Shown here piece by piece: positions 560 through 4,315 of a stretch of 4,315 bases of DNA; within the stretch, counting starts at the first letter, position 1; the number at the start of each line of letters is the position of its first letter. A model generated the notes under the pieces. That model had not been told where the DNA came from. It worked only from the letters and a program-made list of their open reading frames with translations, and made no database searches. The stretch is from a plasmid: NCBI RefSeq assembly GCF_056746865.1, contig NZ_JBWKMP010000008.1. One strand, written 5' to 3'. The position numbers were made by a program, and so were the translations under genes.

Positions 560-754
560 TTATGTTCCTGTTTCACTTTCAGTCTCAAAGCGAACCTGGA
601 TGCTGTTCTGGAGTTCTTCCGCGAGTTCGTGCAGTCGTTCGCACATGGCCGCCTGTTCGTCGGCATCCAGAGCATCCAGTTTTTCAAGCAGTGTCAGGCT
701 CTGGCTTTTGATAAATCGCGCCATATTCAGCGCAGTTTGTTGCTGTTTGTTCAC
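560..754 (-). CDS. rop: Rop/Rom, the RNA I-RNA II pairing modulator protein (64 aa, GTG start)
   Basis: Translation MNKQQQTALNMARFIKSQSLTLLEKLDALDADEQAAMCERLHELAEELQNSIQVRF... aligns by eye with pBR322 Rop (MTKQEKTALNMARFIRSQTLTLLEKLNELDADEQADICESLHDHADELYRSCLARF...). GTG start as in pBR322 rop. GGAG/GGAAG motif just upstream on the - strand. Position and orientation relative to ori match pBR322. Confidence 0.92.
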   Translation of the reverse strand: MNKQQQTALNMARFIKSQSLTLLEKLDALDADEQAAMCERLHELAEELQNSIQVRFETESETGT

Positions 755-880
755 CTTCCGTTGTTCTCCGTCAGTACCGGGTGTCGGGTGGACCCTGACC
801 AGGTGGTAATTGTAAGACGTTGCGGGCGACGGTATTACAATTGCACATCCTGTCCTGTTTTTTTAGGACGTATCATGGCA
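755..880 (-). promoter_or_regulatory. Candidate rop promoter/leader region containing an inverted repeat TAATTGTAA(806-815)...TTACAATT(834-842); TACAAT-like -10 on the - strand
   Basis: Inverted repeat and a TACAAT hexamer read on the - strand. No convincing -35 at canonical spacing, so promoter assignment is tentative. Confidence 0.3.
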
Positions 881-1275: not shown

Positions 1276-1289
1276 CAGATATGTAGCAA

Positions 1290-1520
1290 TGAGTCAGGGA
1301 TTCACGAACTGAAAATGTCCGAAAATGTGTCTCATGGGCACCGTATGCGCCCAAACCGATCGCCATTCACTTTCATGCATAGCTATGCAGTGAGCTGAAA
1401 GCGATCCTGACGCATTTTTCCGGTTTTCGCTTGGTAAAACATCTCTTTTTGCGGTGTTCGCGGCAGAATCGCGTTCAGCGCGTTTTAGCGGTGCGCGTAA
1501 TGCGACGTTATGGTAAATGA
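1290..1520. other. cer-like plasmid multimer resolution site: accessory region with ArgR-box-like palindrome (about 1376-1393, atgcatagctatgcagtg) and XerC/XerD core at 1490-1518 (GGTGCGCGTAA-tgcgacg-TTATGGTAAAT)
   Basis: Core arms match the Xer family (dif GGTGCGCATAA / TTATGTTAAAT; ColE1 cer GGTGCGTACAA / TTATGGTAAAT as I recall). Flanking gcgttcagcgcgttttagcggtgcg resembles ColE1 cer. ARG-box-like dyad lies about 110 bp upstream, the expected geometry. Confidence 0.75.
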
Positions 1521-1535
1521 GGCTGTTGAGTTATT

Positions 1536-1564
1536 AATGTTATGTCGTAATGTACGTATATAAT
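1536..1564 (+). promoter_or_regulatory. Candidate sigma70 promoter for the small ORF: consensus -10 TATAAT (1559-1564), weak -35 (ttaatg, 1536-1541)
   Basis: Perfect TATAAT hexamer within gtacgtatataattc. The -35 is weak. Inferred from sequence only. Confidence 0.4.
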
Positions 1565-1650
1565 TCAGGCGAAGATGAGAAAAGATGAATAGATCTGATA
1601 TGAATTACCATGATTACTCATGGACGGCTGTACAAGGAGATAATCCACGA

Positions 1651-1878
1651 ATGACTAAGCTAGATGCCACGCGCTTTAGCCGTCATGAGGGTTATGAGGT
1701 GTTAGATTTGATTAATTCCTTCCAGGCCAAAGGGGGTGGTGCTCTGACGCTAAAATCACAGCAGATTATCGAGTGGATGCTACATGAACGCCTGCCATCC
1801 AATATCCAGGGGCGAGCTCAGGTTAAAGCGTGGGTGGTTGATAACTTCTCGCAAATGAAGGATGGTTATCCATTCTGA
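1651..1878 (+). CDS. Small hypothetical protein (75 aa from ATG 1651; the in-frame ORF extends to ATG 1585, giving 97 aa), function unknown
   Basis: Strong Shine-Dalgarno AAGGAGA (1634-1640) 10 nt before ATG 1651. Clean intrinsic terminator immediately downstream. I do not recognise the family and see no obvious helix-turn-helix signature. The longer 1585 start has a weaker RBS. Confidence 0.55.
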   Translation: MTKLDATRFSRHEGYEVLDLINSFQAKGGGALTLKSQQIIEWMLHERLPSNIQGRAQVKAWVVDNFSQMKDGYPF

Positions 1879-1879
1879 T

Positions 1880-1906
1880 AAAAAGCCCGCTACAGCGGGC
1901 TTTTTC
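1880..1906 (+). terminator. Rho-independent terminator after the small ORF: stem agcccgc / gcgggct, loop taca, T-run; A-run upstream
   Basis: Seen directly: aaaaa-agcccgc-taca-gcgggct-tttt(t), starting 2 nt after the stop codon. Confidence 0.8.
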
Positions 1907-2015
1907 ATGAGCTGTGCTCAATGAGGCATTATGGTAAATTGTTATGGAGTGGGCATGTCTGTATATGATGCCTGGTGGTATGATTTTGTTTGTAACACTG
2001 GAAGGTTGTTGGAAT
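1907..2015 (+). promoter_or_regulatory. Upstream region of the endonuclease gene, containing TTATGGTAAAT (1929-1939; identical to the cer XerD arm, and readable as an extended -10 TGgTAAATT) and RBS GGAAGG (2000-2005)
   Basis: Sequence reading only. The promoter is not experimentally defined. Confidence 0.35.
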
Positions 2016-2939
2016 ATGGATTTAACAAATATTGAATTTATTAATGATGCCGCAATAAATAGGAGGCGTTACTGGACTAATGAAATTGTCAAATTAAGTG
2101 GGCATTTTGTTAATGACTCCAGTAGGGTTGAGGAGGAAATTATTTATGAAGTTTCCAAATCTGGATCTCAGGCTTTATTGGACCACCTTCGATTATGCAC
2201 AGCCATTCCTGAATCATATGAGCATGATTCAAGCGAAGAAAAGTTATATTCAAAGTATACAGACGCATTGATTTCTGAATGTTTTAAGTTTTTTGGTTTG
2301 AATAGCATTGTGTTAACTGAGAGGGCTGATGCGGCAGATGTAGAAGTTGTATGTGATAGTTATTCTTTTGTTGCTGATGCTAAAGTTTTTCGGTTAAGTC
2401 GAACAGCTAAAAATCAGAAAGATTTTAAAGTTCAAGCAATGGATGGTTGGAGGAATACTAAAGATTTCGCCATGGTTGTTTGTCCAATATATCAGCTTCC
2501 AGTTAAATCAAGTCAAATATATCAACAAGCTATTCTTCGCAATGTGTGTGTGTTTACTTATACTCATTTAGCTGTTCTGGTAAAGTATGCTGACATTGTT
2601 GGTAGTGATGTTAGGATATTGTTAGAGGAAATATTCAGATCTGTCATACTCATGAATCCAAGTAAGGATAGTGTGCAGTACTGGACTATGATTAATAGAA
2701 CGATGTTGAATTATGATAAGAGAATAGAAAAACTTTGGATTGATGAGCGAATTGCTACATCAGAGGGTATCTATGTGCTGAAAAAGATGGCAATAGAATA
2801 CCTCTCTTCCGAGAGAGGTAGAATTCTAAGCATGAGCAGAGAAGAGGCTGTAAGAGCTTTGATTAAAATGAATAAAATTGAAAGTAGAATTGAGCAGATT
2901 AAAAAAGTGACAGATAATAATATTCTGTCACTTAAATAA
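2016..2939 (+). CDS. Type II restriction endonuclease, HindIII family (predicted AAGCTT specificity); 307 aa from ATG 2016, with the open frame extending upstream to 1944
   Basis: Translation contains ...SFVADAKVFRLSRTAKNQKDFKVQAMDGWR..., which matches my memory of the HindIII catalytic region (ADAKSFRLSRTAKNQKDFKV, PD-D/ExK active site), plus further collinear similarity (EEKLYSK..., SREEAVRALIK...). Length is close to HindIII (300 aa). Start at 2016 is preferred because the 24 upstream codons look non-native. This would correspond to the EcoVIII-type enzyme if my recollection of pEC156 is right (unverified). Confidence 0.88.
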   Translation: MDLTNIEFINDAAINRRRYWTNEIVKLSGHFVNDSSRVEEEIIYEVSKSGSQALLDHLRLCTAIPESYEHDSSEEKLYSKYTDALISECFKFFGLNSIVLTERADAADVEVVCDSYSFVADAKVFRLSRTAKNQKDFKVQAMDGWRNTKDFAMVVCPIYQLPVKSSQIYQQAILRNVCVFTYTHLAVLVKYADIVGSDVRILLEEIFRSVILMNPSKDSVQYWTMINRTMLNYDKRIEKLWIDERIATSEGIYVLKKMAIEYLSSERGRILSMSREEAVRALIKMNKIESRIEQIKKVTDNNILSLK

Positions 2940-3854
2940 TTATTTGTTTAATCTCTTTATACTGGTCTCTACATATGTAGGGTTTATTTCGAAACCAATA
3001 TAATCCCTACCTAAATCTTTCGCTGCTACCAATGTAGAACCACTGCCACTAAAAGGGTCAATGACTAATTGACCTTTTTGTGTTGTTAATTCTATAAGTG
3101 TTTTCATTAAGGCTACAGGTTTTTGTGTTGGGTGTAATCCACTTTCATTGCTGGAAAATCCAGCTGTAATGACATTTTCAGGTTTGCCATTTCTTGCTAC
3201 AAATGCATCTTGATTATAAGCACCGACACCATGAATAATTGCATTATCTGCAATTGTGCCGCCAATTTTATATGGTTTAGAGAACCATAGTATGGGTTCA
3301 AAGGTTGGTTGTAGATTTCCAACTCGCCATCCATTCCATTTTTCTGCGTTTAATGTATCCCCGCGCCTTTCGTAAACGCAACTCAACCTTTGGGCTCTGT
3401 GAGGGGCTTTTACTCTCATCCATGCAATTATATCGCGAAGATTGAATCCAGCATCTTCCATTGCACATATGCATCGATGAGAAAATCTTCTGCCTGCAAA
3501 AATAATTGCACTGGCACCTGGTTTTAATACTCTGAACCATTCAGTAGCCCATTCTTCACACCATTGCTGATATTCTAATGGTATTTTCTTATCAGCCTCT
3601 GACCATCCATTTATTGGTTTTCCTCTTTTTTTAAAAATAGCACCTGCGTTTTTCTGCGCAGGGCTTGAACCTAGGTATGCGTTATTTGAGTTATTATGTA
3701 GCACATCCCAGTCTTCTGCTCCTATCCCATAAGGGATATCACTGAGTATTAAATGTGCATATTGTGATGGGAGTTTTTTTATTAATGATATCGAGTTACC
3801 ATTGGTAACGGTATTCTTTTTTATTTCATCAGGTAATTGGATCTTGTTTAACAT
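2940..3854 (-). CDS. DNA methyltransferase, beta-class (motif IV near the N-terminus, motif I near the C-terminus), amino-methyltransferase (N6-adenine by analogy to M.HindIII); 304 aa
   Basis: Motifs seen in the translation: LILSDIPYG (motif IV, DPPY-like), HPTQKP, VIDPFSGSGSTLVAA (FxGxG AdoMet-binding motif I). RBS AGGAA upstream of ATG at 3854 on the - strand. Convergent partner of the HindIII-like endonuclease. Confidence 0.9.
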   Translation of the reverse strand: MLNKIQLPDEIKKNTVTNGNSISLIKKLPSQYAHLILSDIPYGIGAEDWDVLHNNSNNAYLGSSPAQKNAGAIFKKRGKPINGWSEADKKIPLEYQQWCEEWATEWFRVLKPGASAIIFAGRRFSHRCICAMEDAGFNLRDIIAWMRVKAPHRAQRLSCVYERRGDTLNAEKWNGWRVGNLQPTFEPILWFSKPYKIGGTIADNAIIHGVGAYNQDAFVARNGKPENVITAGFSSNESGLHPTQKPVALMKTLIELTTQKGQLVIDPFSGSGSTLVAAKDLGRDYIGFEINPTYVETSIKRLNK

Positions 3855-3912
3855 CTAAATTCCTGCTCTTTCATAGCTTTAAAAACACGCTGATAGTATA
3901 CGTTAAAGTACC
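3855..3912 (-). promoter_or_regulatory. Candidate promoter/leader of the methyltransferase gene (-10-like TATACT, + strand 3895-3900), immediately adjacent to the RNA I terminator and RNA II promoter
   Basis: TATACT hexamer read on the - strand. No convincing -35. Placement is inferred. Confidence 0.3.
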
Positions 3913-3948
3913 TTGACGCAGGATTACCTTTCATCGTAGCCTTTCTGA
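3913..3948 (+). promoter_or_regulatory. RNA II promoter (-35 TTGACG 3913-3918; -10 candidate TAGCCT about 3937-3942)
   Basis: Position equivalent to the pBR322 RNA II promoter just upstream of the aaaaaacc...RNA I terminator sequence. The -10 assignment is approximate. Confidence 0.55.
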
Positions 3949-4053
3949 AAAGAAAAAACCGCCTTGCAGGGCGGTTTTTTCAAGGTTCAAAGAACTTGCA
4001 GGTTTTTGAACCACGGTAACTGGCTTTGTGGGAGCGCAGTCACCAAAATCTGT
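3949..4053 (-). ncRNA. RNAI: RNA I, the antisense copy-number control RNA (about 105 nt), complementary to the 5' end of RNA II
   Basis: 5' end placed by analogy with pBR322 RNA I (acagtatttggtatctgcgc... corresponds here to the reverse complement of gcgcagtcaccaaaatctgt). 3' end at the shared terminator hairpin. Confidence 0.8.
3953..3980 (-). terminator. RNA I terminator hairpin (aaaaaa-ccgcc-ttgcag-ggcgg-tttttt), which also forms the 5' stem-loop of RNA II
   Basis: Seen directly; equivalent to the pBR322 aaaaaaaccaccgctaccagcggtggtttgttt element. Confidence 0.8.
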
Positions 4054-4057
4054 TCTT

Positions 4058-4092
4058 TCAGTTTAGCCTTAACTGGCAAGAAACTTCAAGAC
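4058..4092 (-). promoter_or_regulatory. RNA I promoter (on the - strand: -35 TTGAAG = + strand 4084-4089; -10 CTAAAC = + strand 4061-4066)
   Basis: Same arrangement and near-identical hexamers to the pBR322 RNA I promoter as I recall it (TTGAAG...17 bp...CTACAC). Confidence 0.6.
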
Positions 4093-4315
4093 CAACTCCC
4101 ATAAAACCGTTACCAGTGGCTGCTGCCAGTGGCGTTAAGGCGTGTCTTACCGGGTTGGACTCAAGACGATAGTTACCGGATAAGGCGCAGCGGTCGGGCT
4201 GAACGGGGGGTTCGTGCACACAGCCCAGCTTGGAGCGAACGACCTACACCGAACTGAGATACCAACAGCGTGAGCTATGAGAAAGCGCCACGCTTCCCGA
4301 AGGGAGAAAGGCGGA

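What the first reader, a model, noticed from the sequence alone, without database searches (positions are those of the whole stretch)
2016..3854. HindIII-family Type II R-M system carried as cargo on a ColE1 replicon
The + strand ORF carries the HindIII-like catalytic block ADAKVFRLSRTAKNQKDFKV, and the - strand ORF is a beta-class amino-methyltransferase (DIPYG ... DPFSGSGST). A plasmid-borne HindIII isoschizomer is an addiction-type module on a high-copy replicon. From memory this matches the EcoVIII system of E. coli plasmid pEC156, so I rate it as very likely known rather than novel; that recollection is unverified.
Basis: partly seen in the sequence, partly recalled or inferred. Interest (0 to 1): 0.55.

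Follow-up and report, generated by a model that had tools for sequence, protein, structure and literature searches.

The report
EcoVIII restriction-modification system on pEC156-type plasmid
The window is a complete small ColE1-type plasmid carrying the already well-studied EcoVIII (HindIII-like, AAGCTT) restriction enzyme and its protective methylase, so the finding is real but ordinary and already known.

Summary
Window 2016-2939 (+) encodes a 307-aa HindIII-family endonuclease (Pfam RE_HindIII E=4.6e-101; PDB HindIII E=1.7e-36). Its residues D108/D121/K123 align to HindIII's catalytic Asp93/Asp108/Lys110. Window 2940-3854 (-) encodes a 304-aa beta-class amino-methyltransferase (N6_N4_Mtase E=7.5e-49), with DIPY near the N-terminus and FSGSG near the C-terminus.

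The 4315-bp window is a whole circular ColE1 plasmid with RNAI, Rop and cer. It is 100% identical to several deposited E. coli and Salmonella plasmids.

- published ecoVIIIR primers
- the rare AGG16-AGG17-CGT18 arginine cluster, and AGA122-AGA123 in M
- arginine-codon counts of 18/20 and 13/15 rare
- a unique NheI site and a 1.48-kb HpaI-EcoRV fragment
- G+C values

Direct comparison with AF158026 (4312 bp) was not possible.

According to the literature, the system cuts and methylates AAGCTT, stabilises the plasmid by post-segregational killing, and is throttled by the rare-codon tandem. "High-copy" is overstated: about 14 copies per cell were measured.

Verdict: already known, low interest. 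Side observations: a conserved unknown 97-aa gene bracketed by two XerD arms, and a cer-adjacent cargo slot.

The parts
2016..2939 (+). ecoVIIIR-type gene: 307-aa HindIII-family Type IIP restriction endonuclease (stop TAA at 2937-2939)
   Evidence: ORF. Pfam RE_HindIII 4.6e-101. PDB HindIII 1.7e-36. PADLOC REase_II 3.6e-174. The start at 2016 is supported by the published codon numbering and primers and by homology with the 82%-identical lineage beginning at 2013-2028. The PGAP starts at 1944/1965 (331/324 aa) are probably too long.
2061..2069 (+). Codons 16-18, AGG-AGG-CGT: the rare-arginine tandem that throttles translation of the endonuclease
   Evidence: Codon positions. Experimental role reported in PMC6456624. 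Conserved as AGA-AGG-CGT, preceded by ATA-ATA, in the 82%-identical lineage.
2337..2384 (+). PD...D-X-K catalytic core: D108 (2337-2339), D121-A-K123 (2376-2384)
   Evidence: These align to HindIII Asp93, Asp108 and Lys110 (alignment, numbering check, catalytic residues named in PMC3479186).
2940..3854 (-). ecoVIIIM-type gene: 304-aa beta-class N6-adenine DNA methyltransferase
   Evidence: ORF. Pfam N6_N4_Mtase 7.5e-49. PADLOC MTase_II 2.6e-83. PDB beta-class MTases (DpnA-type 5HFJ, CcrM, RsrI, MboIIA). The exact sequence is in the public collection under UniRef representative Q46975_ECOLX.
3726..3740 (-). MTase motif IV (DIPYG; DPPY-type catalytic motif), aa 39-43
   Evidence: 'Motif IV (DIPY)' is named for HindIII-like MTases in PMC12294265.
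3033..3059 (-). MTase motif I (DPFSGSGST; FxGxG AdoMet-binding motif), aa 266-274
   Evidence: This stretch aligns to motif I of solved beta-class MTases.
1906..2015 (+). Region upstream of R that should hold the R promoter and RBS (inferred)
   Evidence: The published 'natural promoter + RBS + 29 codons' fragment maps to 1814-2102. A strong terminator ends at about 1905, so the promoter should lie between it and 2016. The exact -35/-10 elements are not determined here.
3855..3949 (.). Spacer between the M start and the RNAI 3' end/RNAII start. It holds the M RBS (AGGA 8 nt before the ATG) and, inferred, the M promoter (-) back-to-back with the RNAII promoter (+; TTGACG...TAGCCT)
   Evidence: Read from the sequence. 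RNAI coordinates. The TTGACGCAGGAT.ACCTTTC.TCGTAGCCTTT block is conserved in all R-M-bearing relatives but not in L003/L004. Promoter assignments are inference.
3950..4051 (-). RNAI, the antisense copy-number regulator of the ColE1 replicon. RNAII/ori run on the + strand across the window ends
   Evidence: Rfam RF00106, 85.8 bits, E=1.5e-15.
560..754 (-). rop/rom gene (64 aa, GTG start)
   Evidence: Pfam Rop 8.9e-35. RefSeq WP_001041633.1 sits at the same place.
1280..1518 (+). cer multimer-resolution site. Core: XerC arm 1490-1500 GGTGCGCGTAA, central 1501-1507, XerD arm 1508-1518 TTATGGTAAAT. It forms the left edge of the cargo slot
   Evidence: Aligned with the cer regions of related plasmids. 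Homology with backbones lacking the R-M ends at 1519-1525. cer of pEC156 is described in PMC4743918. Arm assignment rests on my knowledge of the ColE1 cer/dif consensus.
1585..1878 (+). ORF97: conserved 97-aa protein of unknown function, followed by a strong hairpin terminator (1884-1905). It is in the cargo slot but is not part of the conserved R-M unit
   Evidence: The gene is absent upstream of R in the 82% lineage and present without the R-M in NZ_AP022102.1.
1911..1939 (+). Second cer-core-like site (GCTGTGCTCAA-TGAGGCA-TTATGGTAAAT) with a perfect XerD arm, 77 bp upstream of R
   Evidence: Expected 0.13 matches at <=1 mismatch; 2 were found.

Best explanation
This is the EcoVIII Type IIP restriction-modification system, a HindIII isoschizomer pair, on a pEC156-type ColE1 plasmid.

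The 307-aa PD-(D/E)XK endonuclease (predicted catalytic residues D108, D121, K123) cuts unmethylated AAGCTT. The convergently transcribed 304-aa beta-class methyltransferase converts the first adenine of AAGCTT to N6-methyladenine using AdoMet, which protects host and plasmid DNA.

There is no controller (C) protein. Endonuclease output is held down after transcription by a tandem of rare arginine codons at positions 16-17.

The module restricts incoming phage and foreign DNA. It also stabilises its plasmid: cells that lose the plasmid dilute out the methylase and are killed by residual endonuclease (post-segregational killing). This works together with cer/Xer multimer resolution and RNAI/Rop copy control.

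Shown here: gene structures, family membership, conserved catalytic and AdoMet motifs, the replicon context, cargo boundaries, and agreement with all testable published descriptors of EcoVIII/pEC156. Taken from the literature and not testable here: AAGCTT specificity, m6A at the first A, killing and stabilisation, the codon effect, and mobilisation through F-like and R64-like oriT.
For: Family:
- Pfam RE_HindIII 4.6e-101.
- PDB HindIII 1.7e-36, with D/D/K aligned to Asp93/Asp108/Lys110.
- Pfam N6_N4_Mtase 7.5e-49.
- Motif IV lies N-terminal and motif I C-terminal.

Identity with EcoVIII/pEC156:
- Published primers map at 1814-1834 and 2088-2102.
- AGG16-AGG17-CGT18 in R and AGA122-AGA123 in M; 18/20 and 13/15 Arg codons are rare.
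- The restriction map fits: unique NheI, and HpaI-EcoRV 1.475 kb.
- G+C is 35.9% in the R-M unit and 49.4% elsewhere.
- pEC886 (NC_019079) is the same plasmid plus a Tn3-family TEM-2 transposon.

Replicon: RNAI, Rop, cer.

Function, from the literature:
- AAGCTT recognition and plasmid stabilisation by killing of plasmid-free segregants (PMC4743918; PMC5573283).
- m6A on the first A (PMC5974420).
- Rare-codon control (PMC6456624).

Signs that the system is under selection: both proteins are 100% conserved in plasmids from E. coli and Salmonella from several countries, and the rare-Arg tandem and catalytic block are conserved in an 82%-identical sister lineage.
Against: - No direct alignment with AF158026 was possible, and the window is 3 bp longer than the published 4312 bp.
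- PMC6456624 gives R.EcoVIII as 36.7 kDa, whereas the 307-aa product computes to 35.6 kDa.
- One sentence of that paper places an MTase 'AGG tandem at 167-168'. The window has AGG163-CGC164. The same paper elsewhere gives AGA122-AGA123, which does match.
- No enzymatic activity can be tested here.
- NCBIfam has no model that names R.
- The absence of AAGCTT from the plasmid is not significant (0 found, 1.3-1.9 expected).
Confidence: 0.94

Rival explanations
1. It is a HindIII-family R-M pair related to EcoVIII but distinct from it, with a different recognition sequence or cleavage position.
For: AF158026 could not be aligned directly. The plasmid length differs by 3 bp. An 82%-identical sister lineage exists on other ColE1 plasmids, so the family is not monomorphic.
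Against: Every published EcoVIII-specific descriptor tested matches the window: primers, codon identities and positions, Arg codon counts, restriction fragments and G+C. The DNA-contacting and catalytic block SRTAKNQKDFK is identical to that of HindIII itself.
Confidence: 0.03
2. The endonuclease is inactive or silent and the methylase acts as an orphan, so the locus is a decaying remnant, not a working R-M or addiction module.
For: Translation of R is strongly inhibited by the rare-Arg tandem. Several GenBank records annotate only one of the two genes.
Against: Both ORFs are intact, and the catalytic D/D/K residues and AdoMet motifs are present. R is 100% identical in seven plasmids from different hosts and sources. 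The missing annotations are explained by genes running across the start of the record or by the incomplete PLSDB gene table (tool description). The literature shows active restriction and R-dependent stabilisation.
Confidence: 0.03
3. The module's main selected role is defence against phage and foreign DNA for the host. Plasmid addiction is a side effect, not the reason it sits on the plasmid.
For: Restriction of phage by EcoVIII is measurable and rises 7-fold when one rare codon is replaced. The R-M+ plasmid is mobilised less efficiently than the R-M- one (abstract). Relatives carry abortive-infection-type cargo (AbiEii) in the same slot.
Against: The endonuclease gene is one of three factors shown to keep pEC156 stable. 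The same slot in close relatives holds classic toxin-antitoxin addiction modules such as RelE/HigA. The natural codon tuning sacrifices defence potency for host fitness (abstract). The two roles do not exclude each other.
Confidence: 0.3

Closest known systems
EcoVIII R-M system of E. coli E1585-68 plasmid pEC156 (GenBank AF158026; Mruk, Kaczorowski, Werbowy and co-workers)
   Same: The same 307-aa and 304-aa convergent genes on a ColE1/rop/cer plasmid. Also the same: primer sites, rare-Arg codon positions and counts, NheI/HpaI/EcoRV map and G+C contrast.
   Different: The window is 4315 bp against the published 4312 bp. Base-for-base identity was not checked because the record is not in the searchable collections.
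HindIII (Haemophilus influenzae Rd; PDB 2E52/3A4K) and M.HindIII
   Same: Same Pfam family. About 43% identity over the aligned catalytic half. The SRTAKNQKDFK block is identical and the Asp/Asp/Lys catalytic residues are conserved. The literature reports the same AAGCTT specificity.
   Different: HindIII is chromosomal in Haemophilus. The N- and C-terminal parts diverge. There are 13 residues between the two catalytic Asp here against 15 in HindIII. M.EcoVIII and M.HindIII are reported as only 50% identical.
Sister lineage of HindIII-family R-M on 3.7-6 kb ColE1 plasmids of E. coli and Klebsiella (e.g. NZ_AP027826.1, NZ_AP022151.1)
   Same: Same convergent R/M arrangement with abutting stops. 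Same linkage of M to the RNAI/RNAII promoter region. Rare-Arg tandem at codons 16-17. R is 82% and M 85% identical.
   Different: In that lineage R follows cer directly (XerD arm about 115 bp upstream), with no ORF97 segment and a different R upstream region.
Other plasmid-borne Type II R-M addiction modules on ColE1-like plasmids (e.g. Kpn2I on pKPN2, EcoRI, EcoRV)
   Same: A small mobilisable ColE1-type plasmid with R-M as stabilising cargo. pKPN2 also has F-like and R64-like oriT.
   Different: The enzyme families and specificities are unrelated. Other Type II R-M systems are controlled by C proteins, regulatory MTases or antisense RNA, whereas EcoVIII uses codon-level control.

Membership tests
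HindIII-family Type IIP restriction endonuclease (Pfam PF09518) | Full-length match to the RE_HindIII profile | tested here: met
   E=4.6e-101, residues 20-298 on model positions 3-284 of 285. PDB HindIII E=1.7e-36.
HindIII-family Type IIP restriction endonuclease (Pfam PF09518) | PD...(D/E)XK catalytic residues equivalent to HindIII Asp93, Asp108 and Lys110 | tested here: met
   D108, D121 and K123 align to them. The HindIII residues are named in PMC3479186.
HindIII-family Type IIP restriction endonuclease (Pfam PF09518) | Cleaves A^AGCTT | not testable with these tools
   Reported for EcoVIII in the literature. It needs a digestion assay.
Beta-class N6-adenine/N4-cytosine amino-methyltransferase (Pfam PF01555) | Match to the N6_N4_Mtase profile and to solved beta-class MTases | tested here: met
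   E=7.5e-49. Matches to a DpnA-type MTase, CcrM, RsrI, MboIIA and PvuII MTases.
Beta-class N6-adenine/N4-cytosine amino-methyltransferase (Pfam PF01555) | Circularly permuted motif order: catalytic motif IV (DPPY-type) N-terminal, AdoMet motif I (FxGxG) C-terminal | tested here: met
   DIPY at aa 39-42 and FSGSG at aa 268-272.
Beta-class N6-adenine/N4-cytosine amino-methyltransferase (Pfam PF01555) | Forms m6A on the first A of AAGCTT | not testable with these tools
   Reported for M.EcoVIII in PMC5974420. It needs a methylome or a protection assay.
EcoVIII / pEC156 specifically | Published ecoVIIIR primers and the 29-codon fusion point fit the sequence | tested here: met
   1814-1834 with 2 engineered mismatches, and 2088-2102 exact. 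Codon 29 ends at 2102.
EcoVIII / pEC156 specifically | Rare arginine codon pattern: AGG16-AGG17 plus a frequent codon at 18 in R; AGA122-AGA123 in M; 18/20 and 13/15 Arg codons rare | tested here: met
   One sentence of the paper ('AGG tandem at 167-168' in M) does not fit: the window has AGG163-CGC164.
EcoVIII / pEC156 specifically | Restriction map used to build pIB8/pIB9: single NheI site, and a 1.48-kb HpaI-EcoRV fragment spanning the R-M | tested here: met
   NheI at 1214 only. HpaI 2312 to EcoRV 3787 spans 1.475 kb.
EcoVIII / pEC156 specifically | Nucleotide identity to GenBank AF158026 (4312 bp) | not tested
   The record is absent from the collections. The window is 4315 bp.
ColE1-type replicon | RNAI/RNAII antisense control, and Rop | tested here: met
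   Rfam RNAI 85.8 bits. Pfam Rop 8.9e-35.
ColE1-type replicon | cer (Xer) multimer-resolution site | tested here: met
   A core of GGTGCGCGTAA-7 nt-TTATGGTAAAT plus about 200 bp of accessory region aligns with the cer sites of relatives. Function is reported for pEC156.
C-protein-controlled Type II R-M | A small HTH controller gene next to R | tested here: not met
   The only neighbouring ORF (ORF97) has no Pfam, NCBIfam or PADLOC hit, and no HTH-like fold match. The literature describes codon-level control instead.

The most novel reading that the evidence does not exclude
The R-M system itself is known, but the plasmid's architecture may record something not described for pEC156. The stretch between the cer XerD arm and the RNAII promoter behaves as an exchangeable cargo slot. 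Close relatives hold RelE/HigA or AbiEii there, a sister lineage holds the R-M directly after cer, and here the slot holds two stacked modules. The first is ORF97 plus its terminator. The second starts at another cer-core-like site with a perfect XerD arm and continues through R and M. This would mean Xer-site-associated recombination shuffles addiction and defence cassettes among ColE1 plasmids. It would also make ORF97, a widespread uncharacterised family seen in transposon and island cargo, a candidate accessory or defence-related gene.
Probability: 0.25. Interest if true: 0.35.

Novelty: already known. Interest (0 to 1): 0.08.

Why it matters
It matters little as a discovery. EcoVIII/pEC156 has been studied since 1984, with published sequence, enzymology, regulation, stability and mobilisation work. 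Three points have some practical value.

- The plasmid is circulating unchanged in E. coli and Salmonella from livestock, wastewater, rivers and humans. It occurs with a Tn3-family TEM-2 transposon inserted (pEC886), and a related R-M-bearing ColE1 segment (R 82%, M 95% identical) occurs between IS26 copies on an mcr-3.5 IncF plasmid.
- Automated annotation mis-calls the R start and sometimes omits one gene.
- The cer-adjacent cargo slot and ORF97 give modest leads on how small plasmids swap stabilising and defence modules.

Tried and rejected
- Fetching AF158026 (pEC156), AP001918 (F) and AB027308 (R64) from the annotated collections: none is held. Direct identity to pEC156 and the published oriT similarities therefore could not be recomputed. 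The oriT positions in the report are only mapped by coordinate offset.
- Reading the primary EcoVIII gene paper (PMC154532): not held.
- NCBIfam gave no model for R, and only sub-threshold hits for M and Rop.
- Avoidance of AAGCTT in the plasmid as evidence of self-protection: 0 sites against 1.3-1.9 expected, which is not significant. Relatives with the same R-M carry one site.
- The consensus promoter scan found no more sites than shuffles (8 against 9.1), so I assign no promoter from it.
- The longer R ORFs annotated by PGAP (331 aa from 1944, 324 aa from 1965) are rejected in favour of 2016. The reasons are the published codon numbering, the full-length PADLOC and Pfam alignment, and the loss of homology upstream of 2013-2028 in the sister lineage.
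- ORF97 as a controller or anti-restriction protein: no profile hit, no PDB fold match (best E=2.4), and it occurs without the R-M. No functional link is shown.
Full report
**What is in the window**

The 4315-base window is not a fragment. It matches three deposited circular 4315-bp plasmids at 100% over its whole length: E. coli CP056658.1 and CP098986.1, and Salmonella Typhimurium pSL26_ColRNAI NZ_CP032493.1. Several others match at 99.8-99.9%. It is therefore a complete small plasmid, opened inside its replication origin.

The replicon is ColE1-type. Rfam finds RNAI at 3950-4051 on the minus strand (85.8 bits against a gathering score of 47). The 64-aa ORF at 563-754(-) is Rop (Pfam 8.9e-35). 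A cer site with the core GGTGCGCGTAA-N7-TTATGGTAAAT lies at 1490-1518, behind about 200 bp of accessory sequence that aligns with the cer regions of related plasmids.

**Checking the observation**

- R runs from the ATG at 2016 to the TAA at 2937-2939 on the plus strand (307 aa).
- M runs from the ATG at 3854 down to the stop at 2940-2942 on the minus strand (304 aa).
- The genes converge and their stop codons abut.

The quoted peptides are present. ADAKVFRLSRTAKNQKDFKV is R residues 120-139, DIPYG is M residues 39-43, and DPFSGSGST is M residues 266-274.

R evidence:
- It matches Pfam RE_HindIII over essentially the whole model (E=4.6e-101).
- It matches a PADLOC type II REase model end to end (3.6e-174).
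- It matches the solved HindIII structures 2E52/3A4K (E=1.7e-36).
- In that alignment, R residues D108, D121 and K123 fall on HindIII Asp93, Asp108 and Lys110. PMC3479186 names these as HindIII's catalytic residues.
- The block SRTAKNQKDFK is identical in the two enzymes.

M evidence:
- It matches Pfam N6_N4_Mtase (7.5e-49).
- It matches solved beta-class enzymes such as a DpnA-type MTase, CcrM, RsrI and MboIIA.
- The catalytic DPPY-type motif lies near the N-terminus and the FxGxG AdoMet motif near the C-terminus, which is the beta-class order.

**Is it EcoVIII of pEC156?**

GenBank AF158026 is not in the collections I can query, and the primary gene paper is not held. I therefore tested the window against concrete descriptors printed in open papers from the Gdansk group. 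All of the following fit.

(i) Primers. [quoted passage not shown] One is at 1814-1834, with only the two mismatches that create the XhoI site. The other is at 2088-2102, an exact match. Position 2102 is the last base of codon 29 counted from the ATG at 2016.

(ii) Arginine codons. The paper describes two rare arginine codons at positions 16 and 17 followed by a frequent one, with mutants named R(AGG)16->CGC and R(AGG)17->CGC. The window has AGG16-AGG17-CGT18. The paper gives AGA122-AGA123 in the methylase, and the window has exactly that. It counts 18 of 20 arginine codons as rare in R and 13 of 15 in M, and I count the same.

(iii) Restriction map. pIB8 was made by inserting a cassette at the NheI site of pEC156, and pIB9 by deleting a 1.48-kb HpaI-EcoRV fragment carrying the R-M. 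The window has a single NheI site (1214). HpaI at 2312 and the outer EcoRV at 3787 are 1.475 kb apart and span most of both genes.

(iv) Base composition. The R-M unit is 35.9% G+C and the rest of the plasmid 49.4%, against the published '<38%' and 49.3%.

(v) A related record. pEC886 (NC_019079.1), an E. coli clinical-isolate plasmid, is this same plasmid with a Tn3-family TEM-2 transposon inserted at window 902/903.

Small discrepancies remain.
- The published length is 4312 bp and the window is 4315 bp.
- The 2019 paper quotes 36.7 kDa for R, whereas 307 aa computes to 35.6 kDa.
- One sentence places an 'AGG tandem at 167-168' in M, which the window does not have. That sentence also conflicts with the AGA122-AGA123 given elsewhere in the same paper.

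I conclude that this is the EcoVIII system on a pEC156-type plasmid, with about 94% confidence.

**How it works**

Shown here by sequence:
- an intact PD-(D/E)XK endonuclease of the HindIII family
- an intact beta-class amino-methyltransferase
- convergent genes with abutting stop codons
- no HTH controller gene nearby

From the literature on pEC156/EcoVIII:
- Both enzymes recognise AAGCTT.
- The methylase makes N6-methyladenine at the first A using AdoMet.
- The endonuclease gene is one of three factors that keep the plasmid stable, together with cer and copy-number control. Plasmid-free segregants lose methylation and are killed.
- Translation of R is throttled by the rare-arginine tandem. 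Replacing one codon raises restriction about 7-fold but lowers host fitness.
- The plasmid lacks mob genes but is mobilised by F and R64 through two oriT-like loci. By coordinate offset from pEC886's origin at the NheI site, these map to roughly window 769-862 (R64-like) and 1000-1283 (F-like). This mapping is inference only, because the F and R64 records were not available.

New but minor support that the codon device is functional: an 82%-identical sister lineage of the endonuclease keeps a rare tandem at the same codons (AGA16-AGG17-CGT18), preceded by two rare ATA codons.

'High-copy' in the finding's text is an overstatement. The marked derivative pIB8 was measured at 14±2 copies per cell in MG1655.

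**Cargo status and surroundings**

Close backbone relatives without the R-M share only window 3933/3942-4315 plus 1-1519/1525, at 97-99% on the long arm. These relatives are pRHB23-C24_4 (CP057515.1) and E. coli M10 plasmid E. The variable slot therefore runs from just after the cer XerD arm (1508-1518) to the RNAII promoter (about 3940). In those relatives the slot holds an AbiEii/AbiGii-family toxin pair or a RelE/HigA toxin-antitoxin pair.

The G+C drop to 32-37% across 1950-3900 agrees with foreign origin.

Homologues of R are rare on plasmids. Only 18 of 72,556 PLSDB records have one, all from Enterobacteriaceae. Seven carry the identical protein and eleven carry the roughly 80-82% lineage on 3.7-6 kb ColE1 plasmids or, once, inside an IncF plasmid. 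Among 5,426 complete E. coli genomes the system is in 7, always on plasmids.

**Noticed around it**

ORF97. Between cer and R lies a 97-aa ORF (1585-1878). It is followed by a strong palindromic terminator (-18.8 kcal/mol, z=-5.2).
- It is a genuine conserved gene, with 39 clusters at 43-99% identity over its full length and invariant motifs.
- It has no Pfam, NCBIfam or PADLOC hit.
- A confident AlphaFold model (pLDDT 87.7) has no PDB fold match. It matches only uncharacterised ~90-100-aa proteins in AFDB, one of them fused to an HNH nuclease.
- Distant homologues sit in Tn7-like or integrase-island cargo.

ORF97 is not part of the conserved R-M unit. The sister lineage lacks it, and its R follows cer directly, with the XerD arm about 115 bp upstream. 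ORF97 plus its terminator also occur without the R-M in NZ_AP022102.1, where homology to the window stops at 1906.

A second Xer-like site. Just after that break point the window has a second cer-core-like site at 1911-1939, GCTGTGCTCAA-TGAGGCA-TTATGGTAAAT. It has a perfect XerD arm and matches the true core at 22 of 29 positions. Two matches to the XerD arm were found where 0.13 are expected.

The simplest reading is that the plasmid is a stack of two modules joined at Xer-type sites. This is inferred, not demonstrated.

M and the replication control region. M lies directly downstream of RNAI on the same strand and back-to-back with the RNAII promoter. That promoter block is conserved together with the R-M across lineages, but not in the backbones lacking it. 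Any transcriptional coupling is speculation.

**Verdict**

It is an already-known, extensively characterised system, so interest is low. The only mildly new material is the modular, Xer-site-bounded layout of the cargo slot and the uncharacterised ORF97 family.

Noticed in passing
window 1585-1878 (+), terminator 1884-1905: ORF97 is a conserved 97-aa protein family of unknown function. It has invariant YSW..GD.P / FSRHEGYEVL / LPS / W..N motifs. It has no Pfam, NCBIfam or PADLOC hit and no PDB fold match, despite a confident model (pLDDT 87.7). Homologues lie in Tn7-like and integrase-island cargo. RefSeq annotates only a truncated 75-aa version.
   Followed up: partly
window 1911-1939 (compare cer core 1490-1518): There is a second cer-core-like site with a perfect XerD arm (TTATGGTAAAT) 77 bp upstream of R, matching the true cer core at 22 of 29 positions. 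Together with the real cer it brackets the 421-bp ORF97 segment in direct orientation. It may be a relic of Xer-site recombination that joined two cargo modules.
   Followed up: partly
window ~1520-3940; L003 (CP057515.1), L004 (NZ_CP010205.1), L015 (NZ_AP022102.1): The interval between the cer XerD arm and the RNAII promoter is a variable cargo slot in this ColE1 plasmid group. Relatives hold AbiEii/AbiGii-type toxin genes, RelE/HigA, or other hypothetical genes there in place of the R-M.
   Followed up: partly
L002 (NC_019079.1, pEC886) against window 902/903: pEC886 is this same plasmid with a roughly 4.95-kb Tn3-family transposon (TnpA, resolvase, TEM-2 beta-lactamase) inserted between rop and the F-like oriT region.
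   Followed up: yes
L007 (NZ_CP064016.1, 87.7-kb IncFII mcr-3.5 plasmid) 4001-7874: A ColE1 segment carrying a HindIII-family R-M sits between IS26 copies next to mcr-3.5. Its M is 95% identical to the window's M but its R only 82%. That makes it a mosaic of the two lineages, with a recombination point inside or near the R-M.
   Followed up: partly
window 1944-2015 and 4058-4219; annotations: There are annotation inconsistencies in the public records. R is called from upstream ATGs (331 or 324 aa) instead of the experimentally supported 307 aa. Some records list only R or only M. A 53-aa ORF lying inside the RNAII region, opposite strand (4058-4219, -), is labelled 'replication initiation protein', which is probably spurious for a ColE1 replicon.
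   Followed up: partly
window 3855-4051: ecoVIIIM starts 96 bp downstream of the RNAI 3' end on the same strand and lies back-to-back with the RNAII promoter. This promoter block (TTGACGCAGGAT.ACCTTTC.TCGTAGCCTTT) is conserved with the R-M in both lineages but differs in the backbones lacking it. RNAI read-through into M is conceivable but untested.
   Followed up: no
L005/L006/L007 R genes, codons 14-18: The 82%-identical sister endonucleases keep a rare-arginine tandem at codons 16-17 (AGA-AGG-CGT), preceded by two rare ATA isoleucine codons. This suggests that the translational throttle described for EcoVIII is conserved.
   Followed up: yes
window 2799-2820 (-) and 2967-2982 (+): Terminator-like hairpins for each convergent gene lie inside the 3' end of the opposing gene. 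Terminator-like sites in 1500-4100 are enriched (7 against 1.9 expected in shuffles). Their function was not tested.
   Followed up: no
whole window: There is no AAGCTT site in the plasmid. This is not significant (1.3-1.9 expected), and relatives with the same R-M (L008, L006) each carry one site.
   Followed up: yes
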